Origin: a phage
Reading direction: 5' to 3' (one strand)
Assembly: GCA_024682255.1 (NCBI GenBank)
Contig: GCA_024682255.1_4716.1
Length of the DNA: 64,000 nt
Shown here: in pieces, positions 6,365 to 60,721 of the stretch
How positions within the stretch are numbered: the first letter of the stretch is position 1
How the letters are laid out: each line of letters begins with the position of its first letter
Notes under the pieces: generated by a model
Databases searched by the model: none
Told to the model about the DNA's origin: nothing
The model's input: only the letters and a program-made list of their open reading frames with translations
Position numbers and translations under genes: made by a program

Positions 6365-6572
6365 CGTCAACCTCCATCTGATTGAAAACTATCACGCATA
6401 ACGCATTTCCCTTTTCTTGTTCTTATCAATCCGACAGCCGACGGTTTCAGCATCGTTCCTAGCGCGAGAACGACCTTACGTGTTGTCTATGCCTTATTCA
6501 TCGCAGGCGTCTGTCACCTAGGTAATGTAAGCGTCAAATTTTTTCTATTCGCAACGATAAACGGCATAGAAA

Positions 6573-6603
6573 CCTCCCCCAACCCTTACGGGCTGAGGGA
6601 GGC
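6573..6603 (-). terminator. GC-rich hairpin of the dispersed family, downstream of the 740-aa gene
   Basis: cctccc...gggagg arms 100 bp past the stop at 6702; preceded on the plus strand by catag, which is TATG on the minus strand after the hairpin. Confidence 0.55.
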
Positions 6604-6701
6604 TGACTTATGTATCACGGTGCCGGATGAATGTCCGGTGCAATGAAACCATCCGCAACGTTGTCGTCAAGAATATCATCCAACGAAGCAGCTACGGTAG
6701 T

Positions 6702-8924
6702 TCAGTTGGTCTGAACCGGCAGCTTGATGTTTTCAGTGTAGACCTTACGCAGGTTCACAACGTTAATCAGACCCAGCAGCGGGCAGTTGTTAACGAAGCG
6801 GCAGCGCGGCTGAACCATGGTTTCTTTAGAAACCTGACCGTTACGGGTAACCTGAGCAACAGATACCAGTTCCGGTACATACAGGAACATACCGAAGGTC
6901 AGCGGATCCGGAGAACCCTGGATACCACGAGACAGGGTCACGAAGATCTTATCGCGCAGCATGACGTTCGGGTTATCTACAACCACGAAGTTGAAGCTTA
7001 CACCAACGGTACGGAAATCACCATCGGTCTGCAGGAACTGCGGGATGTAGTTGTCAGTTGCTACTACGCAACGCGGTTTCTCATCAGCGTTGGAAGACAG
7101 CAGCTGCAGAGCTGGCTGATAACCAGACTCGGAGTACATGCGGTATGCCATTTCACGAATCACGTTCATGATCGCAGCAGACACTTCAGCACGACGTTCT
7201 GCAGTGGTGGTACCCTGAACAGATTTCTCCAGGTCCAGATTGATTTCTTCGAACCACGGACGGATCAGGTAACGACCGAAACCTTCGATCTGGATGTCGC
7301 CGAACTGACGGAAGCGAGAGGTCGCAACCGCTTTCAGTGCGTCTTTGTAGCTGAACAGTTTCTCAACCATCAGGTTGTCGAAACGTGCGTTAGCAGCTTG
7401 GATCAGAACGTCCAGGTCAGCAGCGTTTTCTTCCCAATCCAGCGGACGAGGAATGGAGAACGGAGCCAGCAGGCCGATTGCGTAACGTTCTTGCTTCATG
7501 TTGAAGTCAAGGTGCTTACCACGCTCACGACGGTTGCTGTTGTTACGGCGGATACGCAGTTCGTAACCAACCAGTTTGAAGCTCAGGTCTTCAGCCAGTT
7601 GTTTGAACTCTTCGCTCTTACGCGGTTGTTCGATGTTGTCCTGATCAACCAGGCGATACAGTTCAGCGTTAGCGCCGTTAACACGCAGACCGGCTTTCTC
7701 TACGTTGGAAGAACCGTAAACTTCGATTGCCAGCTGAGCAGCGGATTTCGCATCGATGATGTCCTGCAGCGCTTCGGCTTTCGCGCCTTTAACGTCAACG
7801 GTGTTCTCATCAACGAAGATGGAGTGGGTGTCGAACGCCAGGGTCATTTTGCGGAAGTCGCCTTCCAGGGATTTCTGGAAACCGTTGGTGATCAGACCAG
7901 ATACGTCGAACGGTACGTAAGAGGTTTTGCTGTGCTTGGTAGATTTGATTTCCACCAGGATTTTGGTCAGCGTGATCTGGGCGTCCAGTGCGTCGGTGTT
8001 GTCGCTGTAACCGTTAGCCAGGATGCTATCGTCTTCAGCAATACCGATCATGTCGATCAGTTTATCAACAGCCAGGTAAGACGTTTTATAAGTTACGCCT
8101 TTAATTTCGATGTCACGCGGAGCAACGATAGTTTTGTCAACGAAGTACTGTGCGTTAGCATCGTCAGCACGATAGATCGGATGCAGATCGGTCACGTCGT
8201 TGGACAGAACGTCGTTGTACATGAACGCATCCAGCAGCGGACGACGTACCCAATCAGCCGGAGTACCGTCAGCGTTACGACGCAGGTGGTTGAACACCAG
8301 CGGACGACGGAAAGATACGTCGTAACCGATCTGGTTCGGAGCCAGAACGATGGTGTTATACAGTTCGTTACCCATGCGGCTCAGACGAGAAGCCTTCACG
8401 TTGAACACAACGGAGTACGGCATCATGTCACGCAGTTCTTTCTGGTCGTAGGACAGCTGAACCAGTTCTTCAGATTCGCAACCGCAGGAATCAGCAGCCA
8501 TCATGACGAAGTTAGAGCTGTCAACTTCACGGCCAGACGGAGTGGTGCTGATGTTCATGGAACGTGCTTGTTTAGCATATTCCACCGGGTTACCATGAGC
8601 CAGCATGATCAGTGCTGCTGCACGAGCCTGCTGTGCGTTCATGGTGAACAGCTGTTCTTCAATACGCTGCTTCTCTTCCGGAGTGGTGGTTTCGAAGCCC
8701 AGCATGGACAGAACCGGTTCTTCGGCTTTACGGATGTCGCTGCTGAAGCTCTTAACATCCATTTCGTTAACCAGTTTGTCCATGGATTTGAAATCAACCT
8801 TAGAAGCAGATTCCATAGACAGGAAGGTGTTCTCCAGACCTTTGTCTGCTGGTTTGCTACCATTAGCGGTCAGGAACTGGCGAGTGGCCGCGACCTGTTG
8901 GCTAAGAAGGGTTTTATCATTCAT
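6702..8924 (-). CDS. abundant virion structural protein, putative major capsid protein (740 aa)
   Basis: ATG at 8924 with AAGGATA upstream. Strong codon bias (CGT, CTG, GAA, AAC preferred) indicates high expression, and the length matches jumbo-phage major capsid proteins. No fold-diagnostic motif is readable, so tail sheath or another abundant protein cannot be excluded. Confidence 0.45.
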   Translation of the reverse strand: MNDKTLLSQQVAATRQFLTANGSKPADKGLENTFLSMESASKVDFKSMDKLVNEMDVKSFSSDIRKAEEPVLSMLGFETTTPEEKQRIEEQLFTMNAQQARAAALIMLAHGNPVEYAKQARSMNISTTPSGREVDSSNFVMMAADSCGCESEELVQLSYDQKELRDMMPYSVVFNVKASRLSRMGNELYNTIVLAPNQIGYDVSFRRPLVFNHLRRNADGTPADWVRRPLLDAFMYNDVLSNDVTDLHPIYRADDANAQYFVDKTIVAPRDIEIKGVTYKTSYLAVDKLIDMIGIAEDDSILANGYSDNTDALDAQITLTKILVEIKSTKHSKTSYVPFDVSGLITNGFQKSLEGDFRKMTLAFDTHSIFVDENTVDVKGAKAEALQDIIDAKSAAQLAIEVYGSSNVEKAGLRVNGANAELYRLVDQDNIEQPRKSEEFKQLAEDLSFKLVGYELRIRRNNSNRRERGKHLDFNMKQERYAIGLLAPFSIPRPLDWEENAADLDVLIQAANARFDNLMVEKLFSYKDALKAVATSRFRQFGDIQIEGFGRYLIRPWFEEINLDLEKSVQGTTTAERRAEVSAAIMNVIREMAYRMYSESGYQPALQLLSSNADEKPRCVVATDNYIPQFLQTDGDFRTVGVSFNFVVVDNPNVMLRDKIFVTLSRGIQGSPDPLTFGMFLYVPELVSVAQVTRNGQVSKETMVQPRCRFVNNCPLLGLINVVNLRKVYTENIKLPVQTN

Positions 8925-9073
8925 TGAAAGTATCCTTTACAGAATTAACTTATATAAGTCGGTCGATAGACCATAGCGTACACGCGTGCATGCGCCACTA
9001 TAGTATCAGTAAACACTTACCGTTATTGAGGTCGTGATACAACACTAAAAATGCCGCATAACTTTTCCCTACG

Positions 9074-11344: not shown

Positions 11345-11371
11345 ACGCAAAAAAAAAAAGATTGTACGGTT

Positions 11372-11403
11372 CCCTCCTCCAACCCGTAAGGGAAGGAGGA
11401 GGG
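11372..11403 (-). terminator. Hairpin of the dispersed family between convergent genes
   Basis: ccctcctcc aacccgtaa ggaaggagggaggg, with an A11 run at 11348-11358 on the plus strand (U-tract on the minus strand). Confidence 0.6.
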
Positions 11404-11419
11404 GTTATGACCGCTTTGA

Positions 11420-14632: not shown

Positions 14633-14687
14633 TTTGTATCCTCGGTTGTTAAGAGAAATTTACAATGATAACAGTAACCGTTGTTAT

Positions 14688-14717
14688 CACCTAGGTAATG
14701 TAGTCGCGAAATAAACT
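14688..14717 (-). promoter_or_regulatory. Conserved leader motif CCTAGGTAATGTAGTCG[C/T]GAAATAAACTG, copy 2 of 3
   Basis: Near-identical to 53449-53473 and partly to 6515-6529; in each case it lies between an upstream hairpin and the next minus-strand start codon. Confidence 0.45.
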
Positions 14718-14735
14718 GGATTAGACAGCATAGAA

Positions 14736-14767
14736 CCCTCTCCCAACCCGTAAGGGAAGGGAGAGGG
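14736..14767 (-). terminator. Hairpin of the dispersed family (core type ccctctccc aacccgtaa gggaagggagaggg)
   Basis: A 12-bp stem with a symmetric AA/AA internal loop and a four-nucleotide loop, sitting between the stop at 14774 and the next gene; catag precedes it on the plus strand. Confidence 0.6.
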
Positions 14768-14773
14768 AATATA

Positions 14774-15407
14774 TCACCAATGATCGAAGGAACCAGGAGT
14801 GTTACGAACGATCTCAACTTGGAAGGTTATTGGTGTTGATGGCAATGAAACATATTCGCGTTGCGATAGCGGGACGTTGTCTTCTCGCTCATCGATGCGA
14901 GCGGAACCTGTCAGAAATTGGAACATAGCGACTTGAAGCTCATCGGTGAAACGGAGGTACTCACCGATGTGTGGTGTTGCATCATATCGAATAAGTACGT
15001 TGCCAAACCGTCGTGCGATATTTGGAGTATCTGTGAACGAAACAGGGAAATCCAAAGTCATTCCCATCGTTTCACCCGGCTTCATTTTCCGAATCGACGC
15101 AATTGGCACGTCGAAGATATTCCATTCTTCTTTCATCGTGTCTGGAAACACACCGCGATACAAGATGGTCTTTTGATGACGATGAACGGGTTGTAAACGG
15201 TCAACCAATATTTTCAAAGGTTTAAGTTCTTCAGCCAACTCATAATCTGCTTGGATGTTCCACTTTGCCGCAAGTTCCATTAGGTTGGGATACGCGCTAT
15301 ATTTATTGACGATAGTCCAGTTAACATTACGCAAATCAATAGGAAGGAATTTGATAATTTCCTTGTTGAATATCCATTGGTTTAATTTCTTAATCTCCGA
15401 AAGCATG
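14774..15407 (-). CDS. hypothetical protein (about 211 aa)
   Basis: Start taken at the ATG at 15405-15407 (MLSEIKK), just after the stop of the upstream gene at 15423; the track's longer ORF would overlap that gene. Confidence 0.6.
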
Positions 15408-26521: not shown

Positions 26522-26628
26522 TTGGGACTCCTACGTAGGAAAATCTTGGCGGGTGATCATGTCCGCCATTTACCTTCTGAACCGTTGATTCAGAAGTCAA
26601 AAGATAACCGGATACCAACGCCATAAAA

Positions 26629-26660
26629 CCTTCCTCCAACCCAACAGGGAAGGAGGAAGG
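26629..26660 (-). terminator. Hairpin of the dispersed family (ccttcctcc variant)
   Basis: Arms ccttcctcc / ggaggaagg carry compensatory changes relative to the core type. Confidence 0.55.
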
Positions 26661-26670
26661 GATATGGTGA

Positions 26671-29286: not shown

Positions 29287-29334
29287 GTGTTGTCTCCAGT
29301 AATGATTCAAAAGATAAACCTGGACGGCATAGAA

Positions 29335-29366
29335 CCCTCTCCCAACCCGTCAGGGAAGGGAGAGGG
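29335..29366 (-). terminator. Hairpin of the dispersed family (core type, loop cccgtcaggg)
   Basis: ccctctccc / gggagaggg arms, preceded by catag on the plus strand. Confidence 0.6.
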
Positions 29367-29388
29367 AATATGTCAGTTTATTAACTGA

Positions 29389-37594: not shown

Positions 37595-37616
37595 AACAAA
37601 ATAGCATGAGCATAAC

Positions 37617-37648
37617 CCTCCTCCAACCCAACAGGGAAGGAGGAGGGA
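37617..37648. terminator. Bidirectional hairpin between convergent genes (ccctcctcc variant)
   Basis: Lies between the plus-strand stop at 37594 and the minus-strand stop at 37657. Confidence 0.6.
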
Positions 37649-37656
37649 ATATGCTG

Positions 37657-41343: not shown

Positions 41344-44139
41344 TTACGCTAATTTACCGAAACCGGCTTTCTGTAGTTTCTCGTTGATCAGTTTTGCTTC
41401 CGCGAAAACATAATCACGATACGCAGTCACTAACCCGTCCACCCGTGAGCGCAAGGCTTCTTCGAAGCTATACCACGCAGCGATTTCACGAATCTGTGCG
41501 TTGATATAATCAACGGTTGAGCGAAGCTCGGTTGCGTTTTCTTGCGGGATGGCTTTCACCTGGCGAGCAACGTCATTTAAACGACGGAACTGTGTTTCGA
41601 TTTCTTTAAACTTACTGTCCGCAAGTTTGCTGAATTCGTCACCGGAACGGGTGAATAACAGATAGCTGTTGCCGTCAAGTGCGGTTGCTAACTGCTGAAG
41701 TACGTTGGTGTCCGGATACACAGGAGTACCGCTTTGCAGTACTTTCTCACCGAATTCCGCGAAGTCCTTCGGTGGTAAGTGTGCAGACGTTGTCAACTCG
41801 TTGAAACGGAAAGTCAGCGAATTATCATACAGCATCCGGTACGCTTCCATACCCTGTTTCATGGTACCGGCCAGGTTAGCCAGACGCGGAGCAATCTCGC
41901 CTTCTTTAGCGCGTTTCTGGTCTTCTAACGCCCCTTCGAGTTCTTTACACTGGTCGTTCAGATACACGATACGATCGGGACGCAGACGACGCATCTCACG
42001 AAGAATAGTATCCAGCTTACCTTCCTGGAAATAACCTAACGTTAAAGACGTACACGCTTGCTGAAGACGATCGAACACCGGTAAGGTCACCATCTCCTTA
42101 CGGATACCATCAACAATCGCAGAAACAGCCGAAAGTTTCTGTTCTGTCGTTAATGGAACATCAGAGACCGACTTGCTGGGCGCACCAACAACGTTACGCA
42201 TTGCGTCGGTATCCTCGGTTTTATCAACCTCTTTACGAACATGCTCATCAGGAACATAAACGTTCGCGTTACGTTTCGCCTGCTTGATGGCGTCGTTGGC
42301 CGCTTTTTCGGTGGCCGCTACGCTATCGGCACGTTTCTTCAAGAGTTCAATAATCCAGAGCAACAGACGACGAATCGCTGTATAGGCGGTCGTGATGATG
42401 ACACCGATAACAGCCATCTTCATGATACCGAACGATTCCATGGTCGGCTCTAACGCCTGGTCCGGCATATACCGTTCACGCAGCTCCAGATAGATCTGCT
42501 CATCTGGTTTGCTGACCTCACCACGATGTGAAGTCCGATAGATGGCTTCGTCAATCTCAACAAGATCTTTGCGTGCCTGGCGATCGGATTCTGTTAAGTA
42601 AGCACAACCGGATACGTCGTCTTCGAAGCTTAAGAATTTGAAAAAGTCGCTGACATCGACGTTGACCTTCTTCGCTTCATTGTCAACGTTAATGAAATCC
42701 GTTTTACGAGACTGCTGTTGAATCTTAATATCCTTTATCGGTTTAAGCGCTTTGTCTTTTAATGCCTGCATGATCTGTTTCCAGCTGGCATCGCGTTCAA
42801 GAACAAGGAAATAGTTCTTGAGTTCGAATGCGCGATAGCGGGCAACAAGTTGTTCTACCTGAACATGAGCGAGTTGTACGTCCATCAGCCAACGCGACAT
42901 TGCCGAGATCAAACGGCTATAAGCAAGCAGCGTCTGATACGTCAGCTTCATGTGTTTCTCGTACAGCTCAATATCGCCGTCTTGAATATCAGCCGTTGGG
43001 TTCATTTCCTTCGTTGCTTTGAAGATTTGTTCGGCTTCATTTAACGTTTGTTCGAATTTGACTTCATTAAACGTGTCAAACGGTTCGGCCAACTCTACCA
43101 TTCGATCGTGAAGTTCACGAACCCAGGCTTCTTTATTGTTGCGAATAGCTGCGTCATCGTGAAGTTCAGTTTGATGTTTCTGTACCCATTCTTCGACGAT
43201 ATCAGCGGCGGCAACAATTCCTGTACCATCGGAAACTAACGGAACAACTCCAGCAAGTACGCCTACACATGCTGGGGTTTTCCAATAATCGTTCAAAGCG
43301 TTTCTGAATTCAACGATGGATTGTACGTTTGGTACTGTGTCCAAAAACGTACTGCCGTTACGGCTCATTGTCGTTACGATATCAGCGAATTCCTTCTGCT
43401 TAGCGGTAACAAAAGGAACCAGGACCATAAGCCATTCAGCAACCGATTTCGCTTTTTCTTTCAGGTTCTTGTCAGCGATTTCTTTAAGGTTTATCGCACC
43501 ACCGTAACCTGCAAGCTCTTTATATACGTCGCTAAGGGTCATCTGTTTATCCAACATTTCTTTGAAACGTGGATAATCAGCACCTAACGCATCGATAATA
43601 TCGTTGATTACGTCATCGGTTGTTGCAATAAACTTCTTCGTATCAACGTTTGAATATTTCCAGACGTACCGTACGGCTTTCTTGATTCCCGCAAAGATAA
43701 ACGCCCAAATACGCTTGATGAGTTCCCAGACTTTCTTCGCACCGTCGACAAACAGTTTAGAGACCTTGGCAACGAATCCTTCCTGTACCAACTCAACGCC
43801 GTTCCGTGATGGGATTTCGGTGAAGAAAGCATCTGGCAGTTGTTTCGGGAATGCGTCACCAAGACGCATACGCAGTTCCGGTACATCAGCACGAGAAATG
43901 CCGCGTGTTACTAACTGTTCGTGAAGACGAACGTTTTCTTCGCCAGAGGTCACGAATTCGTCAACATCGAAGGAGACCATTGCTTCCTGATCTTCGGTGG
44001 TAACGACGCTTGAACCGTCGCTGGTTTGGATGTCCTCGTCAGGGAACGCCATGAGCATACCGTGACGCATTTCAACCACTCCGTAATCGGTTGCTAAACC
44101 GAATTCGTTGTGATCGGGGGTAATAACCGGGATACTCAT
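41344..44139 (-). CDS. hypothetical large protein (931 aa) with one internal hydrophobic segment
   Basis: ATG at 44139 overlapping the upstream stop; hydrophobic MAVIGVIITTAYTAIRRLLLWIIELL in mid-protein. Confidence 0.8.
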   Translation of the reverse strand: MSIPVITPDHNEFGLATDYGVVEMRHGMLMAFPDEDIQTSDGSSVVTTEDQEAMVSFDVDEFVTSGEENVRLHEQLVTRGISRADVPELRMRLGDAFPKQLPDAFFTEIPSRNGVELVQEGFVAKVSKLFVDGAKKVWELIKRIWAFIFAGIKKAVRYVWKYSNVDTKKFIATTDDVINDIIDALGADYPRFKEMLDKQMTLSDVYKELAGYGGAINLKEIADKNLKEKAKSVAEWLMVLVPFVTAKQKEFADIVTTMSRNGSTFLDTVPNVQSIVEFRNALNDYWKTPACVGVLAGVVPLVSDGTGIVAAADIVEEWVQKHQTELHDDAAIRNNKEAWVRELHDRMVELAEPFDTFNEVKFEQTLNEAEQIFKATKEMNPTADIQDGDIELYEKHMKLTYQTLLAYSRLISAMSRWLMDVQLAHVQVEQLVARYRAFELKNYFLVLERDASWKQIMQALKDKALKPIKDIKIQQQSRKTDFINVDNEAKKVNVDVSDFFKFLSFEDDVSGCAYLTESDRQARKDLVEIDEAIYRTSHRGEVSKPDEQIYLELRERYMPDQALEPTMESFGIMKMAVIGVIITTAYTAIRRLLLWIIELLKKRADSVAATEKAANDAIKQAKRNANVYVPDEHVRKEVDKTEDTDAMRNVVGAPSKSVSDVPLTTEQKLSAVSAIVDGIRKEMVTLPVFDRLQQACTSLTLGYFQEGKLDTILREMRRLRPDRIVYLNDQCKELEGALEDQKRAKEGEIAPRLANLAGTMKQGMEAYRMLYDNSLTFRFNELTTSAHLPPKDFAEFGEKVLQSGTPVYPDTNVLQQLATALDGNSYLLFTRSGDEFSKLADSKFKEIETQFRRLNDVARQVKAIPQENATELRSTVDYINAQIREIAAWYSFEEALRSRVDGLVTAYRDYVFAEAKLINEKLQKAGFGKLA

Positions 44140-44576
44140 GCATTCTCTCCTTGCAGTGCGTTAGCGAAAGCTGTTGCAAGTTGTGCGACCAGTTTCGGGT
44201 CAACGCCTTCGATAACGTCAGGCAGCCCTGCGGTTTCTTGGTCACGAACAGCGGAGGCTAATAACAGCATGGTTTCAGGTGCAGTTGGCTCATGCACCAT
44301 GCGGTAACGCAGGCACCAGAAGTAGCGAGCAACGTCTAACGCATCAGCTAACCCGATAACCAGTACCTTGTTCAGCTTATCCAGCCCTTCACGGATTTTA
44401 GGGAGATGTTCGCGAACGAAAATGCTATCTGCGGTCAGATCTTCTTTTTCAGCGAATACGGGCATGCTGTAACCAGCAATGTAACCAGCGGCAATACTTA
44501 ACGCACGGGTCTGTTGTTCGGCCGGGAAATCACGAACCAGGTCTTTCAGCTGAACGGCGAAATCAGAAATATTCAT
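44136..44576 (-). CDS. hypothetical protein (146 aa)
   Basis: ATG at 44576 with AAAGGAA upstream. Confidence 0.75.
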   Translation of the reverse strand: MNISDFAVQLKDLVRDFPAEQQTRALSIAAGYIAGYSMPVFAEKEDLTADSIFVREHLPKIREGLDKLNKVLVIGLADALDVARYFWCLRYRMVHEPTAPETMLLLASAVRDQETAGLPDVIEGVDPKLVAQLATAFANALQGENA

Positions 44577-44608: not shown

Positions 44609-45919
44609 TTAGGCGATAATGGAATCAAGAGTCGCTGCGGTTTTGAACAGATCGCTGTTCATTGTAGAAGAAAGGGCTTGCTGAATTTCTTCCTGTTTAA
44701 CCGCCTTACGAACCCCAGGACGAAGGGCGATAGTCACCATTTGCATGAACGTACGGTTGTTGTTCATTTCTTTCAGTGTATCATCGATTGTTTTAATCGT
44801 GTCTAGCGTAGTTGAACGGATATCGTTAGGGAGATCGCGATCTTTCAGGCGTATAATCAGATCCTGTTTGATCTTACGGAATCGTTCCATATCGTTATCG
44901 TAAATGTTGTATGTTGGATCTAACCAAACTGCAAGCGCCATAGCGGCAACAAATATTGCCATACCGAGAATATTAACCGAGGTGAAGCTGATTGCAATCA
45001 GAATAGCCACGGCGGCATCTTTAATGAAGGAGAGCCAGAACATCGTTTTGGACTTCATGGAGTCTTTGCTATAATACCGATACATTTTAGCAAGCCCGCT
45101 AACGAGATACTCCCCACCACCATGACGTGTAGCGAACTGATCAGCCATGAATTCGGAAGCAACGTCGGTATATCGTCCAGCGTTGTTTACATTTCGTAAT
45201 TGCATCGCTTTGTTAGATACGTAAACCGTGTACCAGACACTACCATCGTCTGAATCACTGATTTTGTCTACGTCGACGTTGGTATCCAGCGTTTTGTTTA
45301 ACGCTTTCGCCAGTTCGATACGTTTTACCTTATCGGTTGTCCCCAACAGTTCACGCTGCACGGTCATGATTGAGGCTTCGACACGAACCGTTTCCGACAA
45401 TGTTTCGAGGAAAGTAAACGCATGACCGATTTCATGCAGCATTATGGCCGCTTTTTCTTCCGGAAGAAAGGGTTCTGTCGCTGCTAGCAGTTCATACGTG
45501 ATGGCAGAACGAATCTTCAACTCCTCAAAGATACCGTAAACACGACCTTTTTCTAAATCGACGTAACCGACAGGCGTATCTTTAATCTTCTTAAGGAGCG
45601 TAACACCATCAGCACCACGCATCCATAACCGATGATAGTCTGCCAAGATCGTGTTGTTTGTCGAAATATCCGGCGGGTACACGTAGGCATTCATCTGGCC
45701 CATTTTCACGTCGACCGAGAATTCGATGTTCAACCCCGTATAGCGTTTAACCATCTCGGTTAAACGACCGTCCTTGAAAACGTTTAAAACATCTTTTTTA
45801 TCCAGTCCCTGTTTGCTTCTGAAGAACTCGGTCATTTCCTTGAACAAGGAACCATCCTGAAACTTGATGGCTTCCATCGTTAATTCGTCATGACCATACA
45901 CGCGTTGTAGTAATGACAT
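44609..45919 (-). CDS. putative membrane-associated zinc metallopeptidase (HEXXH motif)
   Basis: ATG at 45919. The translation contains AAIMLHEIGHAF (HEIGH zincin signature) and, further C-terminal, a run of about 45 hydrophobic residues consistent with two transmembrane helices. Confidence 0.5.
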   Translation of the reverse strand: MSLLQRVYGHDELTMEAIKFQDGSLFKEMTEFFRSKQGLDKKDVLNVFKDGRLTEMVKRYTGLNIEFSVDVKMGQMNAYVYPPDISTNNTILADYHRLWMRGADGVTLLKKIKDTPVGYVDLEKGRVYGIFEELKIRSAITYELLAATEPFLPEEKAAIMLHEIGHAFTFLETLSETVRVEASIMTVQRELLGTTDKVKRIELAKALNKTLDTNVDVDKISDSDDGSVWYTVYVSNKAMQLRNVNNAGRYTDVASEFMADQFATRHGGGEYLVSGLAKMYRYYSKDSMKSKTMFWLSFIKDAAVAILIAISFTSVNILGMAIFVAAMALAVWLDPTYNIYDNDMERFRKIKQDLIIRLKDRDLPNDIRSTTLDTIKTIDDTLKEMNNNRTFMQMVTIALRPGVRKAVKQEEIQQALSSTMNSDLFKTAATLDSIIA

Positions 45920-45930
45920 TGTACACTCTC

Positions 45931-45948
45931 TAAATTTACGTAAATTTA
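45931..45948. promoter_or_regulatory. 18-bp perfect palindrome in a divergent intergenic region
   Basis: taaatttacgtaaattta equals its own reverse complement; it sits 12 nt upstream of the metallopeptidase start codon, overlapping its leader. Confidence 0.5.
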
Positions 45949-46140
45949 AGGGCTAATGGATCGGCTGGCCGCACCAATCACAATGTGTCCGCTGCTATGC
46001 AACGGCATTCATAGAAATACCTTTTGACGGTAACATCACCCATCACACCCCAAGCAATAAGAGTGGTCGGTTAAAAACAACAGAACGTGGGGATGATATA
46101 GAAAATCACCTTTTAACACTTATTACGAGTTTATCAAGCC

Positions 46141-47640
46141 ATGAGCGAACAAGAACGAAAACCTAAGAAGAAACTGCTCGGTATTCAATGTCGACACATC
46201 AGCTATAACGAAGCGAACGATGGCAGCAAGAACGACCTCATGATCGCAAAAGAGATCATGTTCTTTGATGATAATACGCAAGCGACGAACCTTCGCTTCT
46301 TCGAGAATTACAAACGTCCGTTTTGGGTGACGGTAGAGAGTAAACGTAAGAACAAATATAAAAAGGAAAGCGAGAAGCTCTCGCACGTACGTCGCTATGA
46401 TGTCCGTCAAAGTGAACTGGTTGAAAAGATCAGTTCGGTGCTTTATAAAAGACGTGCTGATGATAACACCCGTTTACAGCAGCTTGCACGGAGTCCATAC
46501 CTCTATGGAACGGACGTTAGCGCTAGCTGTTATTTAAAAACCCAATACAATACAAAATGGCCGGAATACGTCGATAAATTACCCGCTTCCATCGCCTGTT
46601 TCGATATCGAAACCGACGTTGTCCATGGACACGGTAAGATCGTCTGTATGTCTATTACAATGGGATACAATGCGATCCTTTGCTATACCAAGGACTTCGT
46701 TGGTCATATTCCGAATGCGATTGAGAAAACCCATGAGAAGATTCGATATTACCTGGCCGAACGTCTAAACACCAAAGAAGATCCGCACGCATTTGAAAAA
46801 TATCAGTACGATGTGCGAATCGTAGAAAGTCCGGCACAAGCGGTCATCCAATGCATGCAGAAGGTTCACGAATGGCAGCCGGATTATCTCCTTGGCTGGA
46901 ATATCGCGTTCGATATTCCGCGCATGCTCCAGGCACTGAACGAAGAAGGGTATCGTCCCGAGGATGTTTTCTCCGATCCCCGTGTACCACCTAAGTATCG
47001 TATTGCTCGCTGGGTACCACCGAAGACCGACAAGGTATCTGCTTCAGGGCGTAAAACCAACCTTACCCTTGAGCAAACCTGGCCGATGTTTTATACGATG
47101 GCTACGTATCAGGTTATGGATGCGATGTGTGGTTATAAGTTCGTTCGTTTAGGAAGACCGGATGAGGGACGTTATTCACTCGATGCGGTATTAGAGCGAA
47201 ATAAATGCCATACGAAATTAAAAGCAATTCCTGGTACAGAAGGGTTCACAGAGCTTGCGTGGCACGAAGAGATGCAAACGAACCATCAAATCGACTACGG
47301 TGTATATAACCTTTGGGATAACCAAGGCATCGAGGCGTTGGACCAGAAAACAAAAGACTATTCGATGACCATCCCTATCCGTTTAGCGGCGTCGGATTTG
47401 AAAGATTTCAGTTCTAACCCTAAACGTATCTGCGATAAACTTTTCTTCGTTTATCTTAACCGTGGGGAAGTCATGGGCTGCACTGCCGACGACATGACCC
47501 AGGAAGAAGATAAGTGGGTTATCTCACGAACCGGACATATCGTCACATTGCCGTGCGATCTCATGGCGGACAACGGCATCCATCTCTTCTGGGATATGCC
47601 GAACCTGAGAAGTTATATTAGATTATTTGTTGCGGATTAA
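46141..47640 (+). CDS. DNA polymerase N-terminal/3'-5' exonuclease domain protein (499 aa as annotated; the C-terminus may be spliced)
   Basis: ATG at 46141. Exo I ACFDIETD, Exo II GWNIAFDIP and Exo III YGVYNLWD are present at family-B-like spacing. No polymerase motifs A, B or C are present, consistent with a split polymerase. Confidence 0.6.
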   Translation: MSEQERKPKKKLLGIQCRHISYNEANDGSKNDLMIAKEIMFFDDNTQATNLRFFENYKRPFWVTVESKRKNKYKKESEKLSHVRRYDVRQSELVEKISSVLYKRRADDNTRLQQLARSPYLYGTDVSASCYLKTQYNTKWPEYVDKLPASIACFDIETDVVHGHGKIVCMSITMGYNAILCYTKDFVGHIPNAIEKTHEKIRYYLAERLNTKEDPHAFEKYQYDVRIVESPAQAVIQCMQKVHEWQPDYLLGWNIAFDIPRMLQALNEEGYRPEDVFSDPRVPPKYRIARWVPPKTDKVSASGRKTNLTLEQTWPMFYTMATYQVMDAMCGYKFVRLGRPDEGRYSLDAVLERNKCHTKLKAIPGTEGFTELAWHEEMQTNHQIDYGVYNLWDNQGIEALDQKTKDYSMTIPIRLAASDLKDFSSNPKRICDKLFFVYLNRGEVMGCTADDMTQEEDKWVISRTGHIVTLPCDLMADNGIHLFWDMPNLRSYIRLFVAD

Positions 47641-47707
47641 GAAATAAATCGGTTAAGTTTTACCTCCTTTCTCGATAAGTATGATACTAAGCGAGCAAGG
47701 AGTTGAT

Positions 47708-48814
47708 ATGTCGAGTAGTTATGAGTATCCAAAGATTACTGAATGTGTTGTTTCCGAAGAAGGTATCTTCGACCTCGATATGAAGCCGTTACCACTTACC
47801 GTGGAAGATGGAATATCGTACGTCAAACTTGACTGGTACCGTGGTCCCGGTCTGTATGACGCAGGTCTTGTGGTAATGCGTAAACTGCATGCTATCAACA
47901 TATACGAAGATCTGTTAGACGAAGCACATTCGTTGTATATCGATGGGAACCCAGAAAACATCAAACGTGAGAACTTGCTTTATCGTTTCAAGAACGGTAA
48001 GTTGGAACACAAGGGTTATCCGGGCTATTACTACGTCCCTTTCTTTACACACTACGTGATAAACGAGCAAGGCGAAGTGATCAGTCTTTTAACCGGGCAA
48101 AAGAAATCATGGACACGGTCGAAAGGGGATCCGAAACGAAATAAGCGTGCTGGGTACTTATATCAGCGCGTCGTTAATGATAATGGTTTCACAGCCCAAA
48201 TGTTTCAACATCGTGCGATGGGTTACGTGTTCCTGGAATACGGTGCCGACGTGATGACAAAGATCATCAACCACATAAACGGCATCAAATGGGATAATCG
48301 TCCATGCAACATTGAATGGACAACCTATTCTGAGAACAACAAGCATGCGATTGATAGCGGTCTTCGTACAGAAGGCTTACATCCTGTTAAGGTTAAGGAT
48401 TACAACACCGGTGAGGTTAGGGTATTCCCAACAATCGCTGCGTGCTGTGCTGCTTATCCATGCTTGGAACGTAAACGTGTTTGGTATTGGATGACGCGTA
48501 AAACGAAATTCATGCCAGCCTGCAATCTGTATTTCAAAGAAGTCGATGATGATACTCCGTGGCCAGATTGGCAAATCGGACAGCACCGTCGTCTTCAGGA
48601 ATACGATATGGGCCACCCTATCGCAGCTATCGATAAGCAAACCGGTAAACGTTATGTGTTTGCATCAATTGCTCACGCACAACGAGAGACGGGTGTTTCT
48701 AACGTGACTATCACGAAGTACTGTCGTAATAGACTTACAGAAGGTCGTTCTCCATTCATCTTCCGCTATTTTGAAGATGTTAGTTCGATGCCTGTAGGCC
48801 TTAACGACGCTTAA
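47708..48814 (+). CDS. HNH homing endonuclease
   Basis: ATG at 47708 with AAGGAG seven nt upstream (an alternative ATG at 47681 exists). HNH motif INHINGIKWDNRPCNIEWTTYSENNKHA and a C-terminal helix-turn-helix-like segment GKRYVFASIAHAQRETGVSNVTITKYC typical of phage homing endonucleases. Confidence 0.8.
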   Translation: MSSSYEYPKITECVVSEEGIFDLDMKPLPLTVEDGISYVKLDWYRGPGLYDAGLVVMRKLHAINIYEDLLDEAHSLYIDGNPENIKRENLLYRFKNGKLEHKGYPGYYYVPFFTHYVINEQGEVISLLTGQKKSWTRSKGDPKRNKRAGYLYQRVVNDNGFTAQMFQHRAMGYVFLEYGADVMTKIINHINGIKWDNRPCNIEWTTYSENNKHAIDSGLRTEGLHPVKVKDYNTGEVRVFPTIAACCAAYPCLERKRVWYWMTRKTKFMPACNLYFKEVDDDTPWPDWQIGQHRRLQEYDMGHPIAAIDKQTGKRYVFASIAHAQRETGVSNVTITKYCRNRLTEGRSPFIFRYFEDVSSMPVGLNDA

Positions 48815-48899
48815 CCGATTTTAGGTCCCGGTGGGGATAACGCCCCCACCGGATTCCCGTTAATTGCTGGAACCCCCTAAAGCCTTTCGACCACAGCGG

Positions 48900-50573: not shown

Positions 50574-50588
50574 TATGTTTACGTATAT

Positions 50589-50984
50589 TTACTCTTTGAC
50601 GTCAGTTGTCGTTTCGACATGCTTCTCACTACTGACGTACCAGAGCAGGTACGCTGGGAAAAGATTGACCTCTAAGCTAAATGGGATATTGTATTTCTCT
50701 TCCATTTTACAGAGATGTTCTTTAAGTAAATTTCTCGCGTCTCTGTCACCACGAACAGAGTGCCAGTCTAGTTCTTTGTTCTCCTTTACCAGGACCTCTA
50801 CGATGATACGTTGCTCGTGAACCTCGGTTTTCACAGTGAAAAGTAAATCGCTGCTATCAAAACGGGTAAAACGAATGTATGAACCTGGTGTTTTTTCTTG
50901 TTTAATAATATCGATCATGGTAGAAATGCGCGGATGATCGATGTTGTCGTTAACAGCTTTAACGATGGATTCTACAATGCTCAT
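50589..50984 (-). CDS. hypothetical small protein (131 aa), array member 3
   Basis: ATG at 50984 with AAGGAT upstream; AT-rich region upstream. Confidence 0.75.
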   Translation of the reverse strand: MSIVESIVKAVNDNIDHPRISTMIDIIKQEKTPGSYIRFTRFDSSDLLFTVKTEVHEQRIIVEVLVKENKELDWHSVRGDRDARNLLKEHLCKMEEKYNIPFSLEVNLFPAYLLWYVSSEKHVETTTDVKE

Positions 50985-53332: not shown

Positions 53333-53448
53333 CTCGACATCCTTTTATATTGGATTGATTGCAATTGTCTTAAATAGATGATAAGATATTTTGCTCTTAT
53401 CACTAAGGTAACGCTTACGCGTCGCGTTCATGATGCATGGCATCATGA

Positions 53449-53473
53449 AGGTAATGTAGTCGTGAAATAAACT
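53449..53473 (-). promoter_or_regulatory. Conserved leader motif, copy 3 of 3, with adjacent inverted repeat
   Basis: aggtaatgtagtcgtgaaataaact matches 14692-14716 at 20 of 21 positions; an inverted repeat ttcatgatg-catgg-catcatgaa lies at 53427-53449. Confidence 0.45.
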
Positions 53474-53504
53474 GCGTTAACACGAAATAAAAAACAGCAT
53501 AGAA

Positions 53505-53536
53505 CCCTCTCCCAACCCGTAAGGGAAGGGAGAGGG
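53505..53536 (-). terminator. Hairpin of the dispersed family (core type)
   Basis: Identical core to 14736-14767 and 60673-60704; an A-run and catag precede it on the plus strand. Confidence 0.6.
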
Positions 53537-53549
53537 AATATTAAAATTG

Positions 53550-60656: not shown

Positions 60657-60672
60657 TGTAAAGGTAACATAA

Positions 60673-60704
60673 CCCTCTCCCAACCCGTAAGGGAAGGGAG
60701 AGGG
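60673..60704. terminator. Bidirectional hairpin of the dispersed family (core type) between convergent genes
   Basis: Lies between the plus-strand stop at 60656 and the minus-strand stop at 60722. Confidence 0.6.
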
Positions 60705-60721
60705 CTTATGCTGTTATGCTG

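What the first reader, a model, noticed from the sequence alone, without database searches (positions are those of the whole stretch)
44609..45948. Membrane-anchored HEXXH metallopeptidase with a perfect 18-bp palindrome in its leader
The protein has the HEIGH zincin signature followed later by a long hydrophobic block consistent with two transmembrane helices, resembling membrane zinc peptidases. This is distinct from the serine-type prohead proteases usual in phiKZ-like phages. Immediately upstream, 12 nt from the start codon, is the perfect palindrome taaatttacgtaaattta (45931-45948), a candidate operator for a dimeric regulator or a translational control hairpin.
Basis: partly seen in the sequence, partly recalled or inferred. 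Interest (0 to 1): 0.55.

Follow-up and report, generated by a model that had tools for sequence, protein, structure and literature searches.

The report
Capsid-packaged M48-like zinc protease gene
This gene of a Goslar-like nucleus-forming jumbo phage encodes a conserved capsid protein that looks like an intact M48-type zinc protease with a greasy membrane-type hairpin, a good untested candidate for an injected enzyme, whereas the palindrome in front of it is real and single-copy but has no demonstrable function.

Summary
ORF 44609-45919(-) encodes 436 aa with HEIGH at residues 162-166, an uncharged hydrophobic block at 302-333, and a perfect 18-bp palindrome at 45931-45948, 11 nt before the ATG.

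The window is a relative of E. coli phage Goslar (94% nt). The protein is the ortholog of Goslar gp67, phiKZ gp84 (head protein) and SPN3US gp45.

Published Goslar virion mass spectrometry detects gp67 at roughly 50 copies, including a peptide starting after LTME16. That position matches the prohead-protease cut in SPN3US gp45.

Membrane insertion, ejection and substrates are inferred, not shown.

The palindrome occurs once per Goslar-type genome and is conserved in a diverged relative. But 22% of shuffled windows contain such a palindrome, it is absent from distant homologues, and its RNA hairpin is unstable (-0.2 kcal/mol). The translational-hairpin idea is not supported and the operator idea is untested.

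The family is known. The M48-plus-hairpin reading of a core chimallivirus head protein is useful and testable.

The parts
44609..45919 (-). CDS, 436 aa. Ortholog of Goslar gp67 / phiKZ gp84 / SPN3US gp45; PHROG 2767; M48-like virion metallopeptidase.
45872..45919 (-). Codons 1-16: predicted N-terminal propeptide ending in LTME16, removed by the prohead protease.
   Evidence: E16 is nearly invariant. A [SAGT]-x-E motif occurs in the first 40 residues of 168/194 family members. A semi-tryptic peptide AIKFQDGSLFKEMTEFFR starting at A17 is in the Goslar virion MS table. The site aligns with the experimentally mapped ASE-20 cut of SPN3US gp45.
45422..45436 (-). HEIGH (H162 E163 I G H166): two zinc ligands and the catalytic glutamate.
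   Evidence: Invariant in alignment A1. Present in 194/194 wider family members. Aligns with ZMPSTE24 chain residues 335-339, HELGH. The peptide AAIMLHEIGHAFTFLETLSETVR is observed in Goslar virions.
45140..45154 (-). E256-F-M-A-D260: predicted third zinc ligand (Glu) in the M48 'ExxxD' helix.
   Evidence: E256, D260 and R265 are invariant. The spacing from HExxH is fixed at 94-99 residues in 186/194 members and 89 in one more. The profile segment tssEflADqFAtRhG aligns with ZMPSTE24 412[15 protein letters not shown].
44921..45049 (-). Residues 291-333: hydrophobic helical hairpin (candidate membrane-inserting element).
   Evidence: Kyte-Doolittle peaks 1.87 and 2.31. AF2 helices at 291-313 and 317-333. 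A charge-free block of at least 18 aa is found at this position in 174/187 family members; the median length among the 35 sequences examined closely is 34 aa, usually with a central Gly/Pro turn. The sequence evolves fast while staying hydrophobic: 58% identity here against 96-98% elsewhere in P0005.
44612..44902 (-). Residues 340-436: C-terminal all-helical domain of unknown role (conserved Y340, R346, K359, L424, F425).
   Evidence: Alignment A1 and AF2 secondary structure. The only sequence matches are to designed helical repeat proteins, which is uninformative.
45926..45930 (-). GAGAG, the probable Shine-Dalgarno sequence of the gene.
   Evidence: Read from the sequence. Lies in the block perfectly conserved in L002.
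45931..45948 (.). Perfect 18-bp palindrome TAAATTTACGTAAATTTA. Function not established.
   Evidence: Exact. Single copy in Goslar-type genomes. Conserved in L002. Absent upstream of the phiKZ, PhiEaH1 and SEGD1 homologues. RNA hairpin dG -0.2 kcal/mol.
46010..46016 (-). TTCTATG: candidate late (nvRNAP-type, TATG) promoter. It would give a leader of about 91 nt containing the palindrome.
   Evidence: T[CT]TATG[CAG][CTA]G is about 6-fold enriched in intergenic DNA of the window, with 7 of 16 copies in the 6.9% that is non-coding. The motif lies in a block conserved in L002. phiKZ late promoters are TATG with the G as start site (PMC4666361). No transcription start data exist for this phage; this is an inference.
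45989..46005 (-). Small stem-loop just downstream of the TATG (CCGTTGC-ATA-GCAGCGG).
   Evidence: Present in the MFE and centroid folds. L002 has GCCGTTG-CAGCA-CAACGGC, a different loop and 3' arm that keeps the pairing. Only two variants are available, so this is weak.
44136..44576 (-). Downstream gene, 146 aa: ortholog of Goslar gp66 / phiKZ gp85, a capsid vertex-binding-complex subunit.
   Evidence: Position and length match Goslar gp066. Role taken from the Goslar cryo-EM preprint and the phiKZ capsid structure.
41344..44139 (-). Next gene, 931 aa, overlapping the previous gene by 4 nt: ortholog of Goslar gp65 / phiKZ gp86 (vertex-binding complex).
   Evidence: The same gene order is seen in phiKZ (84-85-86), PhiEaH1 and SEGD1/SPN3US.
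46141..47640 (+). Divergently transcribed DNA polymerase (N-terminal part). It shares the 221-nt control region.
   Evidence: phrog_3011 E=2.3e-150. Goslar gp068 is annotated as DNA polymerase.

Best explanation
The gene encodes a core head protein of phiKZ-like (chimallivirus) jumbo phages: the ortholog of Goslar gp67, phiKZ gp84 and SPN3US gp45. It is a diverged but catalytically intact M48-type zinc metallopeptidase.

Shown or directly supported:
(1) Orthology and conserved gene order, next to the capsid vertex-binding-complex genes.
(2) An M48 fold with HExxH plus a downstream glutamate ligand, conserved in essentially every family member.
(3) Presence of the Goslar ortholog in purified virions at tens of copies.
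(4) An N-terminal cut after residue 16, at the prohead-protease motif.

Inferred mechanism: the protein is made late and targeted into the procapsid. Its 16-residue propeptide is trimmed by the serine prohead protease, and it is stored in the head. On infection it leaves with the DNA and the other ejected proteins. The conserved hydrophobic helical hairpin (residues about 291-333) then buries itself in a lipid bilayer, either the host inner membrane or the early-infection (EPI) vesicle that encloses the injected genome. This places the zinc protease domain and the C-terminal helical domain at the membrane surface, where it cleaves host envelope or co-injected phage proteins.

The 18-bp palindrome lies in the probable 5' leader, directly upstream of the Shine-Dalgarno sequence. 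It is most likely an A/U-rich leader segment or a DNA-level site peculiar to Goslar-type phages. It is not an RNA switch, and it is not part of the conserved biology of the family.
For: Identity:
- 94.4% nt identity to Goslar.
- 95% aa identity to Goslar gp067, and tblastn hits in 245 phage records including phiKZ PHIKZ084 ('structural head protein'), PhiPA3 086, 201phi2-1 and SPN3US-type phages.
- More than 3,600 cluster representatives in metagenomes, nearly all full length.

Enzyme:
- H162, E163, H166, E256, D260 and R265 are invariant.
- HExxH is present in 194/194 members, and HExxH plus Exx[ASG]D spaced 89-99 residues apart in 187/194.
- Pfam Peptidase_M48 matches 20/33 members, best E 2.5e-5.
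- The profile aligns both motifs to ZMPSTE24 chain residues 335-339 (HELGH) and 415. That H335/H339/E415 bind zinc and E336 is catalytic is my recollection of the published structure.
- BFVD gives full-length matches to jumbo-phage virion proteins and weaker ones to entries named zincin or M48 peptidase.

Virion and processing:
- Goslar virion MS gives 19 peptides, 47% coverage and an estimate of about 48 copies (range 32-76). It includes the HEIGH peptide and a semi-tryptic peptide starting at A17.
- SPN3US gp45 has a 20-residue propeptide cut by prohead protease gp245, and ASE20|SIGFQ aligns with LTME16|AIKFQ.

Importance: phiKZ orf84 has 0 transposon insertions in 1,242 bp in the trimmed TraDIS table. 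The paper quotes a genome-wide rate of one unique insertion per 42 bp across its whole dataset.

Hairpin: it is conserved in position while its sequence is free to vary.

Palindrome.
Against: - No experiment shows catalysis, ejection or membrane insertion for any family member.
- The window protein itself does not reach any Pfam threshold, so the M48 assignment rests on profile, family and fold evidence.
- The protein sits in a membrane-free capsid, so the hairpin must be shielded there. It could instead be a protein-protein contact.
- In phiKZ gp84 the hydrophobic block is only 19 residues, so topology is unresolved (single pass, hairpin or monotopic).
- The cleavage evidence in Goslar is one spectrum from a table that was cut when stored, so the uncleaved N-terminus could not be excluded.
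- The absence of insertions in phiKZ may partly reflect polar effects. The authors invoke polar effects for orf85-86.
- The gp67 protein was not among those built into the Goslar cryo-EM model.
Confidence: 0.55

Rival explanations
1. The protease works inside the head, or during head assembly, and is never ejected. It could be a second maturation or quality-control protease, or a structural partner of the vertex-binding complex. In this reading the hydrophobic hairpin is a protein-protein contact, or a transient anchor holding the nascent procapsid on the inner membrane, where chimallivirus capsids are reported to assemble.
For: - It is co-transcribed, in conserved order, with the vertex-binding-complex genes gp66/gp65 (phiKZ gp85/gp86).
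- The estimated copy number of about 48 is close to the 55 copies (5 x 11 vertices) modelled for Goslar gp59, though the estimates are rough.
- Not every abundant head protein is ejected: Goslar gp208/gp209 and phiKZ gp89/gp162 stay in the head.
Against: - It was not seen in the ordered density of either the Goslar or the phiKZ capsid.
- All mapped head cleavages in SPN3US follow the prohead-protease motif, leaving no orphan cleavages that need a second enzyme.
- A 30-40 residue charge-free segment whose sequence drifts freely is more typical of a lipid-facing than a protein-facing element.
Confidence: 0.25
2. The palindrome is an operator for a dimeric DNA-binding protein (phage or host) that controls the divergent gp67 and DNA polymerase transcription units.
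For: - Perfect dyad symmetry of 18 bp in a 221-nt divergent control region.
- The 31-nt block around it is identical in L002 although the neighbouring intergenic sequence carries substitutions and indels.
- The intergenic region is 98.6% identical to Goslar, against 94.4% for the wider region.
- It is unique in the genome.
Against: - No second site and no half-site regulon in Goslar.
- No candidate regulator is linked to the locus.
- 22% of shuffled windows contain such a palindrome.
- It is absent upstream of the phiKZ, PhiEaH1 and SPN3US-type homologues.
- The conserved block also contains the ribosome-binding site, which could explain the conservation.
- Transcription in these phages is by phage RNA polymerases inside a compartment, where no operator-type control is known (my own knowledge).
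Confidence: 0.12
3. The palindrome is two back-to-back copies of a promoter element, forming a bidirectional 'middle' promoter. AAATTTAC on each strand matches the phiKZ middle-promoter motif AAanTTACc, which is centred near -24. On both strands an AATG lies 22-26 nt downstream of the motif centre.
For: - The phiKZ motif and its spacing are described in PMC4666361.
- The sequence read gives AAATTTACG-N17-CAATG towards gp67 and AAATTTACG-N13-TAATG towards the polymerase.
- Virion proteins such as vRNAP subunits are middle genes in phiKZ (abstract of PMC4666361).
Against: - ATTTAC occurs in only 6 Goslar upstream regions, with no shared context.
- AA..TTAC is not clearly enriched in intergenic DNA of the window: 6 observed against 3.5 expected, two of them the palindrome itself.
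- A start at the ATG would make the conserved GAGAG useless.
- A good TATG-type site lies 91 nt upstream.
- The polymerase has its own TATTAC element 14 nt from its ATG in Goslar; the window reads TTATTAC at the same place.
Confidence: 0.1
4. The palindrome forms an RNA hairpin that controls translation of the metallopeptidase.
For: It lies in the probable leader and ends directly at the Shine-Dalgarno sequence. The hairpin does appear in the MFE fold.
Against: - The stem is 7-8 A-U pairs, dG -0.2 kcal/mol alone, with 35% occupancy in the ensemble.
- In context the fold is -2.6 kcal/mol against a shuffle mean of -2.78.
- The 121-nt leader has z = -0.04.
- The stem leaves the SD and the AUG unpaired.
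- No Rfam match.
Confidence: 0.04
5. The zincin fold is a relic: the protein is a purely structural or ejected scaffold with no enzymatic activity.
For: - Sequence similarity to cellular M48 enzymes is very low; the window protein has no Pfam hit.
- Many virion proteins keep enzyme-like folds without known activity (my own knowledge).
Against: The residues that matter only for catalysis and metal binding (H, E, H, E, plus D260/R265) are the most conserved positions in a family that is otherwise 20-30% identical.
Confidence: 0.08

Closest known systems
Goslar gp67 / phiKZ gp84 / PhiPA3 086 / SPN3US gp45 (PHROG 2767, 'virion structural protein', function unknown)
   Same: Direct orthologs. 95% aa identity to Goslar gp67. 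Same length, same gene order (DNA polymerase, then divergently the gp84-85-86-like genes), same motifs and same N-terminal cleavage position.
   Different: Nothing essential. Among Goslar-type phages the central part of the gene is mosaic: 30-50% identity in the L003-type lineage, while the first 35 codons and the upstream region stay 94-100% identical. The palindrome exists only in the Goslar-type lineage.
ZMPSTE24 / Ste24p (eukaryotic M48A CAAX proteases)
   Different: Ste24 enzymes are seven-helix membrane barrels enclosing the active site (my own knowledge). Here there is one short hydrophobic hairpin after the catalytic domain, a soluble N-terminal domain and a C-terminal helical domain. 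Sequence identity is 15-18% over 170 aligned residues.
HtpX, BepA/YfgC, LoiP, Oma1 (bacterial and mitochondrial M48B/C envelope quality-control proteases)
   Different: HtpX has N-terminal transmembrane helices and BepA has a TPR domain and is periplasmic (my own knowledge); neither architecture is present here. None of these enzymes is packaged in a virus particle or carries a capsid-protease propeptide.
Prohead (head maturation) proteases of jumbo phages (phiKZ gp175, SPN3US gp245, Goslar gp212)
   Same: Also proteases found in the head. They act at S/A/G-x-E motifs, one of which lies at the N-terminus of this protein.
   Different: An unrelated fold and catalytic type (the serine, herpesvirus-assemblin-like type is my own knowledge). 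Encoded elsewhere in the genome. The protein studied here is a substrate, not the maturation enzyme.
Bacillus phage AR9 'zincin protease' proteins and uncultured Myoviridae 'Peptidase M48' entries in BFVD
   Same: Structural matches over most of the length (E 1e-7 to 1e-4), with peptidase names given by annotators. AR9 also has virion and non-virion multisubunit RNA polymerases.
   Different: TM-scores of only 0.4-0.45. Whether they are virion proteins with a hydrophobic hairpin was not checked.

Membership tests
Peptidase family M48 (MEROPS M48 / Pfam PF01435) | HEXXH zinc-binding and catalytic motif on the active-site helix | tested here: met
   HEIGH at 162-166, inside predicted helix 153-193. 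Invariant in A1 and present in 194/194 wider members. Aligns to ZMPSTE24 HELGH, chain residues 335-339.
Peptidase family M48 (MEROPS M48 / Pfam PF01435) | Third zinc ligand: a glutamate in a downstream helix within an E-x-x-x-D context (gluzincin of the M48/M56 type) | tested here: met
   E256-FMA-D260 is invariant. Constant 94-99 residue spacing in 186/194 members, 89 in one more. The profile segment aligns with ZMPSTE24 412[15 protein letters not shown]426, which contains E415. That E415 is the zinc ligand is my knowledge of the published structure.
Peptidase family M48 (MEROPS M48 / Pfam PF01435) | Sequence match to the family profile above the curated threshold (PF01435 gathering score 20.3 bits) | tested here: inconclusive
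   The window protein has no PF01435 hit at E<=10. 20 of 33 homologues match it, best E 2.5e-5. One relative scores 19.0 bits against the 20.3 cut-off. By extrapolation the best members should pass, but their bit scores were not printed.
Peptidase family M48 (MEROPS M48 / Pfam PF01435) | M48 catalytic-domain fold | tested here: met
Peptidase family M48 (MEROPS M48 / Pfam PF01435) | Zinc-dependent endopeptidase activity | not testable with these tools
   Needs purified protein, metal analysis, and an activity assay with and without 1,10-phenanthroline.
Integral membrane protein (bitopic hairpin) | Two hydrophobic helices each long enough to span a bilayer, conserved across the family | tested here: inconclusive
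   In the window protein: peaks at 294-312 and 315-333, but the first includes K300 and D301, and the uncharged run is 32 aa. In the family the charge-free block ranges from 14 to 57 aa (median 34) and is only 19 aa in phiKZ gp84. No topology predictor or experiment was available.
Chimallivirus / phiKZ-like head protein processed by the prohead protease | Detected in purified virions | tested here: met
   The Goslar ortholog has 19 peptides in virion LC-MS/MS (supplement of bioRxiv 10.64898/2026.04.21.720040). phiKZ gp84 is annotated 'structural head protein'. Homologues are annotated as virion structural proteins in many phages. This is evidence for orthologs, not for this exact phage.
Chimallivirus / phiKZ-like head protein processed by the prohead protease | Cleavage after an S/A/G-x-E type motif | tested here: met
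   LTME16|AIKFQ. The motif is conserved in 168/194 members. A semi-tryptic peptide from A17 is seen in Goslar virions, from a single spectrum. The homologous ASE20| cut in SPN3US gp45 is published. The residue at -3 here is T rather than S, A or G.
Ejected (injected) virion protein | Transfer from the capsid into the host cell at infection | not tested
   No data were found for any family member. The Goslar preprint tested gp60, gp61, gp208 and gp209 only.

The most novel reading that the evidence does not exclude
The virion delivers about 50 copies of a membrane-inserting zinc protease. This enzyme would be a phage-encoded determinant of the lipid-bounded early-infection (EPI) vesicle: it would anchor the injected genome-protein bolus to the membrane and cut host or phage proteins, either to form the vesicle or later to open it so that the genome can pass into the chimallin nucleus. 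That would make it the first enzyme assigned to the membrane stage of chimallivirus infection.
Probability: 0.2. Interest if true: 0.8.

Novelty: new variant of a known kind. Interest (0 to 1): 0.42.

Why it matters
Nucleus-forming jumbo phages first enclose their injected genome in a lipid vesicle. Which phage proteins deal with that membrane is an open question in the papers read here.

This head protein is conserved across phiKZ-like phages. Its phiKZ ortholog appears fitness-conferring by transposon sequencing. It combines an intact M48 zinc-protease site with a membrane-type hydrophobic hairpin, which makes it an obvious and cheap-to-test candidate.

In the literature I could search it is still listed only as a hypothetical or virion structural protein. 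Recording the fold, the catalytic residues, the propeptide cut and the hairpin gives experimenters precise mutations to make.

The palindrome matters little. At most it is a lineage-specific control element.

Tried and rejected
- Direct Pfam and PDB sequence searches with the single protein gave nothing useful. Only the family alignment, per-member scans and the fold search were informative.
- The top sequence matches of the profile in the PDB were designed helical repeat proteins, hitting the C-terminal helices. I rejected them as compositional.
- Literature searches for gp84, PHIKZ084 and gp67 found no functional study.
- The afdb50 fold library was not available.
- A replication origin at the divergent intergenic region: there is no GC-skew change, so I dropped it.
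- A 3-mismatch relative of the palindrome at 50574-50591 overlaps a stop codon and is absent from Goslar. I treat it as chance.
- Nine of the 12 exact copies of the palindrome in IMG/VR lie in unrelated, mostly A+T-rich contigs with no homologue of the protein nearby. They are chance occurrences.
- L003-type relatives could not serve as an independent conservation test. Their intergenic region and first 100 nt of the gene are near-identical to the window because of mosaicism.
- Two long fusion proteins containing the domain (P0144, P0176) had no recognisable N-terminal partner.
- No sigma-70-type promoter is present in the region. [quoted passage not shown]
Full report
**What is in the sequence**

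The minus strand carries an ATG-initiated ORF at 44609-45919 encoding 436 residues. HEIGH is at residues 162-166.

A hydrophobic block follows the catalytic region. Kyte-Doolittle peaks fall at 294-312 and 315-333. The longest charge-free run is residues 302-333.

TAAATTTACGTAAATTTA at 45931-45948 is a perfect palindrome. GAGAGTGTACA (11 nt, beginning with a plausible Shine-Dalgarno GAGAG) separates it from the ATG.

**Where the window comes from**

The region is 94.4% identical in DNA to Escherichia phage vB_EcoM_Goslar, a chimallivirus (nucleus-forming jumbo phage).

The ORF is the ortholog of Goslar gp067 (95% aa). tblastn finds relatives in 245 phage records. These include phiKZ PHIKZ084 ('structural head protein'), PhiPA3 086, 201phi2-1 and the SPN3US group, mostly annotated 'virion structural protein'. 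It belongs to PHROG 2767, function unknown.

Gene order is conserved from Goslar to phiKZ, PhiEaH1 and SPN3US-type phages. A DNA polymerase gene lies on one strand. On the other strand, divergently, lie this gene, a ~146-aa gene and a large gene. [quoted passage not shown]

A profile search of 1.84 billion cluster representatives finds 3,642 family members at E<=0.001 and 1,797 at E<=1e-30. The 150 best listed are nearly all full length, about 410-455 aa.

**Is it a metallopeptidase?**

The single sequence hits nothing in Pfam or the PDB, but the family evidence is consistent.
- In a 33-sequence alignment with 20-96% identity to the query, the invariant positions are G129, A158, H162, E163, G165, H166, E256, D260, R265, G267 and R346.
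- Among 194 family members of 380-500 aa, all have HExxH. In 187 an Exx[A/S/G]D motif lies 89-99 residues downstream.
- Twenty of 33 members match Pfam Peptidase_M48, best E 2.5e-5. A few match HtpX models weakly.
- The family profile aligns 'ftpeEiaAilLHEiGH' to human ZMPSTE24 324-339, and 'tssEflADqFAtRhGaGraLvtaldKl' to 412[27 protein letters not shown]. From my knowledge of the published structure, these are the two histidine ligands with the catalytic glutamate, and the glutamate ligand E415.
- In BFVD the model matches full-length jumbo-phage virion proteins (TM up to 0.83). More weakly it matches entries named 'zincin protease' (Bacillus phage AR9) and 'Peptidase M48'.
- Two phage genomes already carry the automatic name 'beta-barrel assembly-enhancing protease' for this family.

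I conclude that the protein is a diverged M48-type gluzincin with an intact active site.

**It is a capsid protein, and a substrate of the prohead protease rather than that protease**

In the supplement of the 2026 Goslar structure preprint (bioRxiv 10.64898/2026.04.21.720040), gp067 is detected in purified virions. It has 19 peptides and 47% coverage, and a rough estimate of 48 copies per virion (range 32-76). One of the peptides is AAIMLHEIGHAFTFLETLSETVR. It is not among the proteins built into the cryo-EM model, and the main text does not discuss it.

The same table lists AIKFQDGSLFKEMTEFFR, whose N-terminus (A17) follows E16 and not a Lys or Arg. E16 is nearly invariant. A [S/A/G/T]-x-E motif occurs in the first 40 residues of 168/194 members.

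For SPN3US, gp45 is published as a substrate of prohead protease gp245 with a 20-residue propeptide (PMC5694885 and PMC10052503). Gene order identifies gp45 as the homologue. Its ASE20|SIGFQ aligns with LTME16|AIKFQ here.

The Goslar evidence is one spectrum in a table that was truncated on storage, so the extent of processing is unknown.

In the phiKZ transposon screen, PHIKZ084 has no insertion in 1,242 bp in the trimmed TraDIS table. The paper quotes a genome-wide rate of one unique insertion per 42 bp across its whole dataset. The authors warn of polar effects, yet report that the downstream orf85-86 tolerate deletion. That makes a requirement for orf84 itself plausible but not proven.

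**The hydrophobic element**

A charge-free block of at least 18 residues sits at the same place in 174 of 187 members. Among the 35 sequences examined closely its median length is 34 residues, usually with a Gly/Pro turn in the middle. AlphaFold2 predicts two helices, 291-313 and 317-333.

Its sequence drifts much faster than the rest of the protein while staying hydrophobic. In P0005 it is 58% identical, against 96-98% elsewhere; in P0006 it is 42%, against 68-97%. This is typical of lipid-facing segments.

The length varies widely, however, from 14 to 57 residues, and is 19 in phiKZ gp84. A two-pass hairpin, a single pass and a monotopic wedge all remain possible.

Because the protein resides in a membrane-free capsid, 'membrane-anchored' can only describe a state before packaging or after ejection. 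That is inference.

**Most likely mechanism**

Shown, for orthologs: the protein is packaged in the capsid, its N-terminus is trimmed, and it belongs to a conserved M48-like family.

Inferred: after ejection with the genome, the hairpin inserts into the inner membrane or the EPI vesicle, and the protease acts there on host envelope or co-injected proteins.

The main rival is a role confined to the head or to head assembly at the membrane, possibly together with the vertex-binding complex encoded next to it. I put this at about 0.25. The present data do not separate the two.

**The palindrome**

It is the only perfect 18-bp palindrome in the window. But 22% of first-order Markov shuffles contain one.

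It is unique. No other copy with up to 4 mismatches exists in the complete Goslar genome. There is one copy per Goslar-type contig in IMG/VR, always in front of this gene. Nine further exact copies occur in unrelated, mostly A+T-rich contigs.

In L002, whose protein is 77% identical, the intergenic region has a 44-nt deletion, a 7-nt insertion and many substitutions. Even so, CCCTTAAATTTACGTAAATTTAGAGAGTGTA is unchanged. The same is true of two other blocks, each containing TTTCTAT(G/A).

The upstream regions of the phiKZ, PhiEaH1 and SPN3US-type homologues have no palindrome.

As RNA, the stem is 7-8 A-U pairs with dG -0.2 kcal/mol. In context the fold is no more stable than shuffles, and it leaves the SD and AUG free. 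Rfam finds nothing. The translational-hairpin reading is therefore not supported.

An operator remains possible but has no positive evidence. A third idea is that the two AAATTTAC half-sites are copies of the phiKZ middle-promoter motif AAanTTACc (PMC4666361). This fits the spacing, but the motif is not recurrent in Goslar upstream regions.

A TATG-type candidate late promoter (TTCTATG, 46010-46016) lies 91 nt upstream. Related motifs are about 6-fold enriched in intergenic DNA of the window. If that promoter is used, the palindrome is simply part of an A/U-rich leader next to the ribosome-binding site.

**Comparison with what is known, and novelty**

The gene family is catalogued and repeatedly seen in virion proteomes, but in the literature I could search it is described only as a hypothetical or structural protein.

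The catalytic core is M48. The architecture differs from the characterised M48 enzymes Ste24, HtpX, Oma1 and BepA. It consists of an N-terminal propeptide cut by a capsid protease, a soluble catalytic domain, a short hydrophobic hairpin and a conserved helical C-terminal domain, and the protein is packaged in a phage head. I rate it a new variant of a known kind.

For this window the finding amounts to recognising a known gene and giving it a well-supported fold assignment and a testable role. The palindrome adds little.

Noticed in passing
window 6560-6612, 11360-11412, 14724-14776, 26617-26669, 29323-29375, 37604-37656, 53493-53545, 60661-60713: There are eight copies of a ~53-nt intergenic element. 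It is a G+C-rich hairpin (CCCTCTCCCAACCCGTAAGGGAAGGGAGAGGG) flanked on one side by CATAGAA (TTCTATG on the other strand) and on the other by AATATG or TTATG. It looks like a terminator hairpin with TATG-type late promoters facing outward on both strands.
   Followed up: partly
window 14686-14723 and 53442-53479 (also 6513-6550); Goslar loci L019-L023: A second repeat lies next to the hairpin element. Its reverse complement reads TTTCGCGACTACATTACCTAGGTGA. Across the Goslar genome a clear consensus TTTCACGGCTATATTACTTAGGTGA precedes several genes, including the nuclear shell (chimallin) gene. It resembles what I recall (my own knowledge, not checked in the papers read here) as the phiKZ early, virion-RNA-polymerase promoter.
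   Followed up: partly
window 6627-8927 (+) over 6702-8924 (-): The major capsid protein gene (740 aa, minus strand) is completely overlapped by an antisense ORF of 766 aa on the plus strand. In Goslar the same frame is interrupted (1,938-nt and 387-nt stop-free stretches), so the antisense ORF is probably not a gene.
   Followed up: partly
window 47681-48814 (+), and 47640-48860 generally: An HNH homing-endonuclease-like gene follows the DNA polymerase fragment. This segment does not align with Goslar at the DNA level, apart from a 78-nt stretch at 75% identity, although both flanks do. The two phages therefore carry different endonuclease genes at the same site. L002 and L003 have a 368-aa version.
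   Followed up: partly
window 44869-45817 versus L003: The metallopeptidase gene is mosaic among Goslar-type phages. In the L003-type lineage the intergenic region and the first 35 codons are 94-100% identical to the window, the centre of the protein is only 30-50% identical (9% in the hydrophobic block), and the C-terminal 100 residues are about 62% identical. This indicates recombination or strong diversifying pressure on the catalytic and hairpin parts.
   Followed up: partly
window 45920-46140: The 221-nt region between the metallopeptidase and polymerase genes differs from Goslar at only 3 positions (98.6%), while the surrounding 2.5 kb is 94.4% identical. Three blocks survive in the more diverged L002. 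The polymerase start has no recognisable Shine-Dalgarno sequence; a TTATTAC element (TATTAC in Goslar) ends 14 nt before its ATG.
   Followed up: partly
window 50574-50591: TATGTTTACGTATATTTA, a 3-mismatch relative of the palindrome, overlaps the stop codon of the gene at 50589-50984(-) and sits just upstream of a G+C-rich hairpin. It is not present in Goslar and is probably chance.
   Followed up: yes
L006 7008-7025 and L013 4198-4215 (unrelated IMG/VR contigs): In two unrelated phage contigs the same 18-bp palindrome follows a G+C-rich hairpin and the sequence CCGTATATA, in very similar contexts. This suggests a regulatory site in that other phage group.
   Followed up: no
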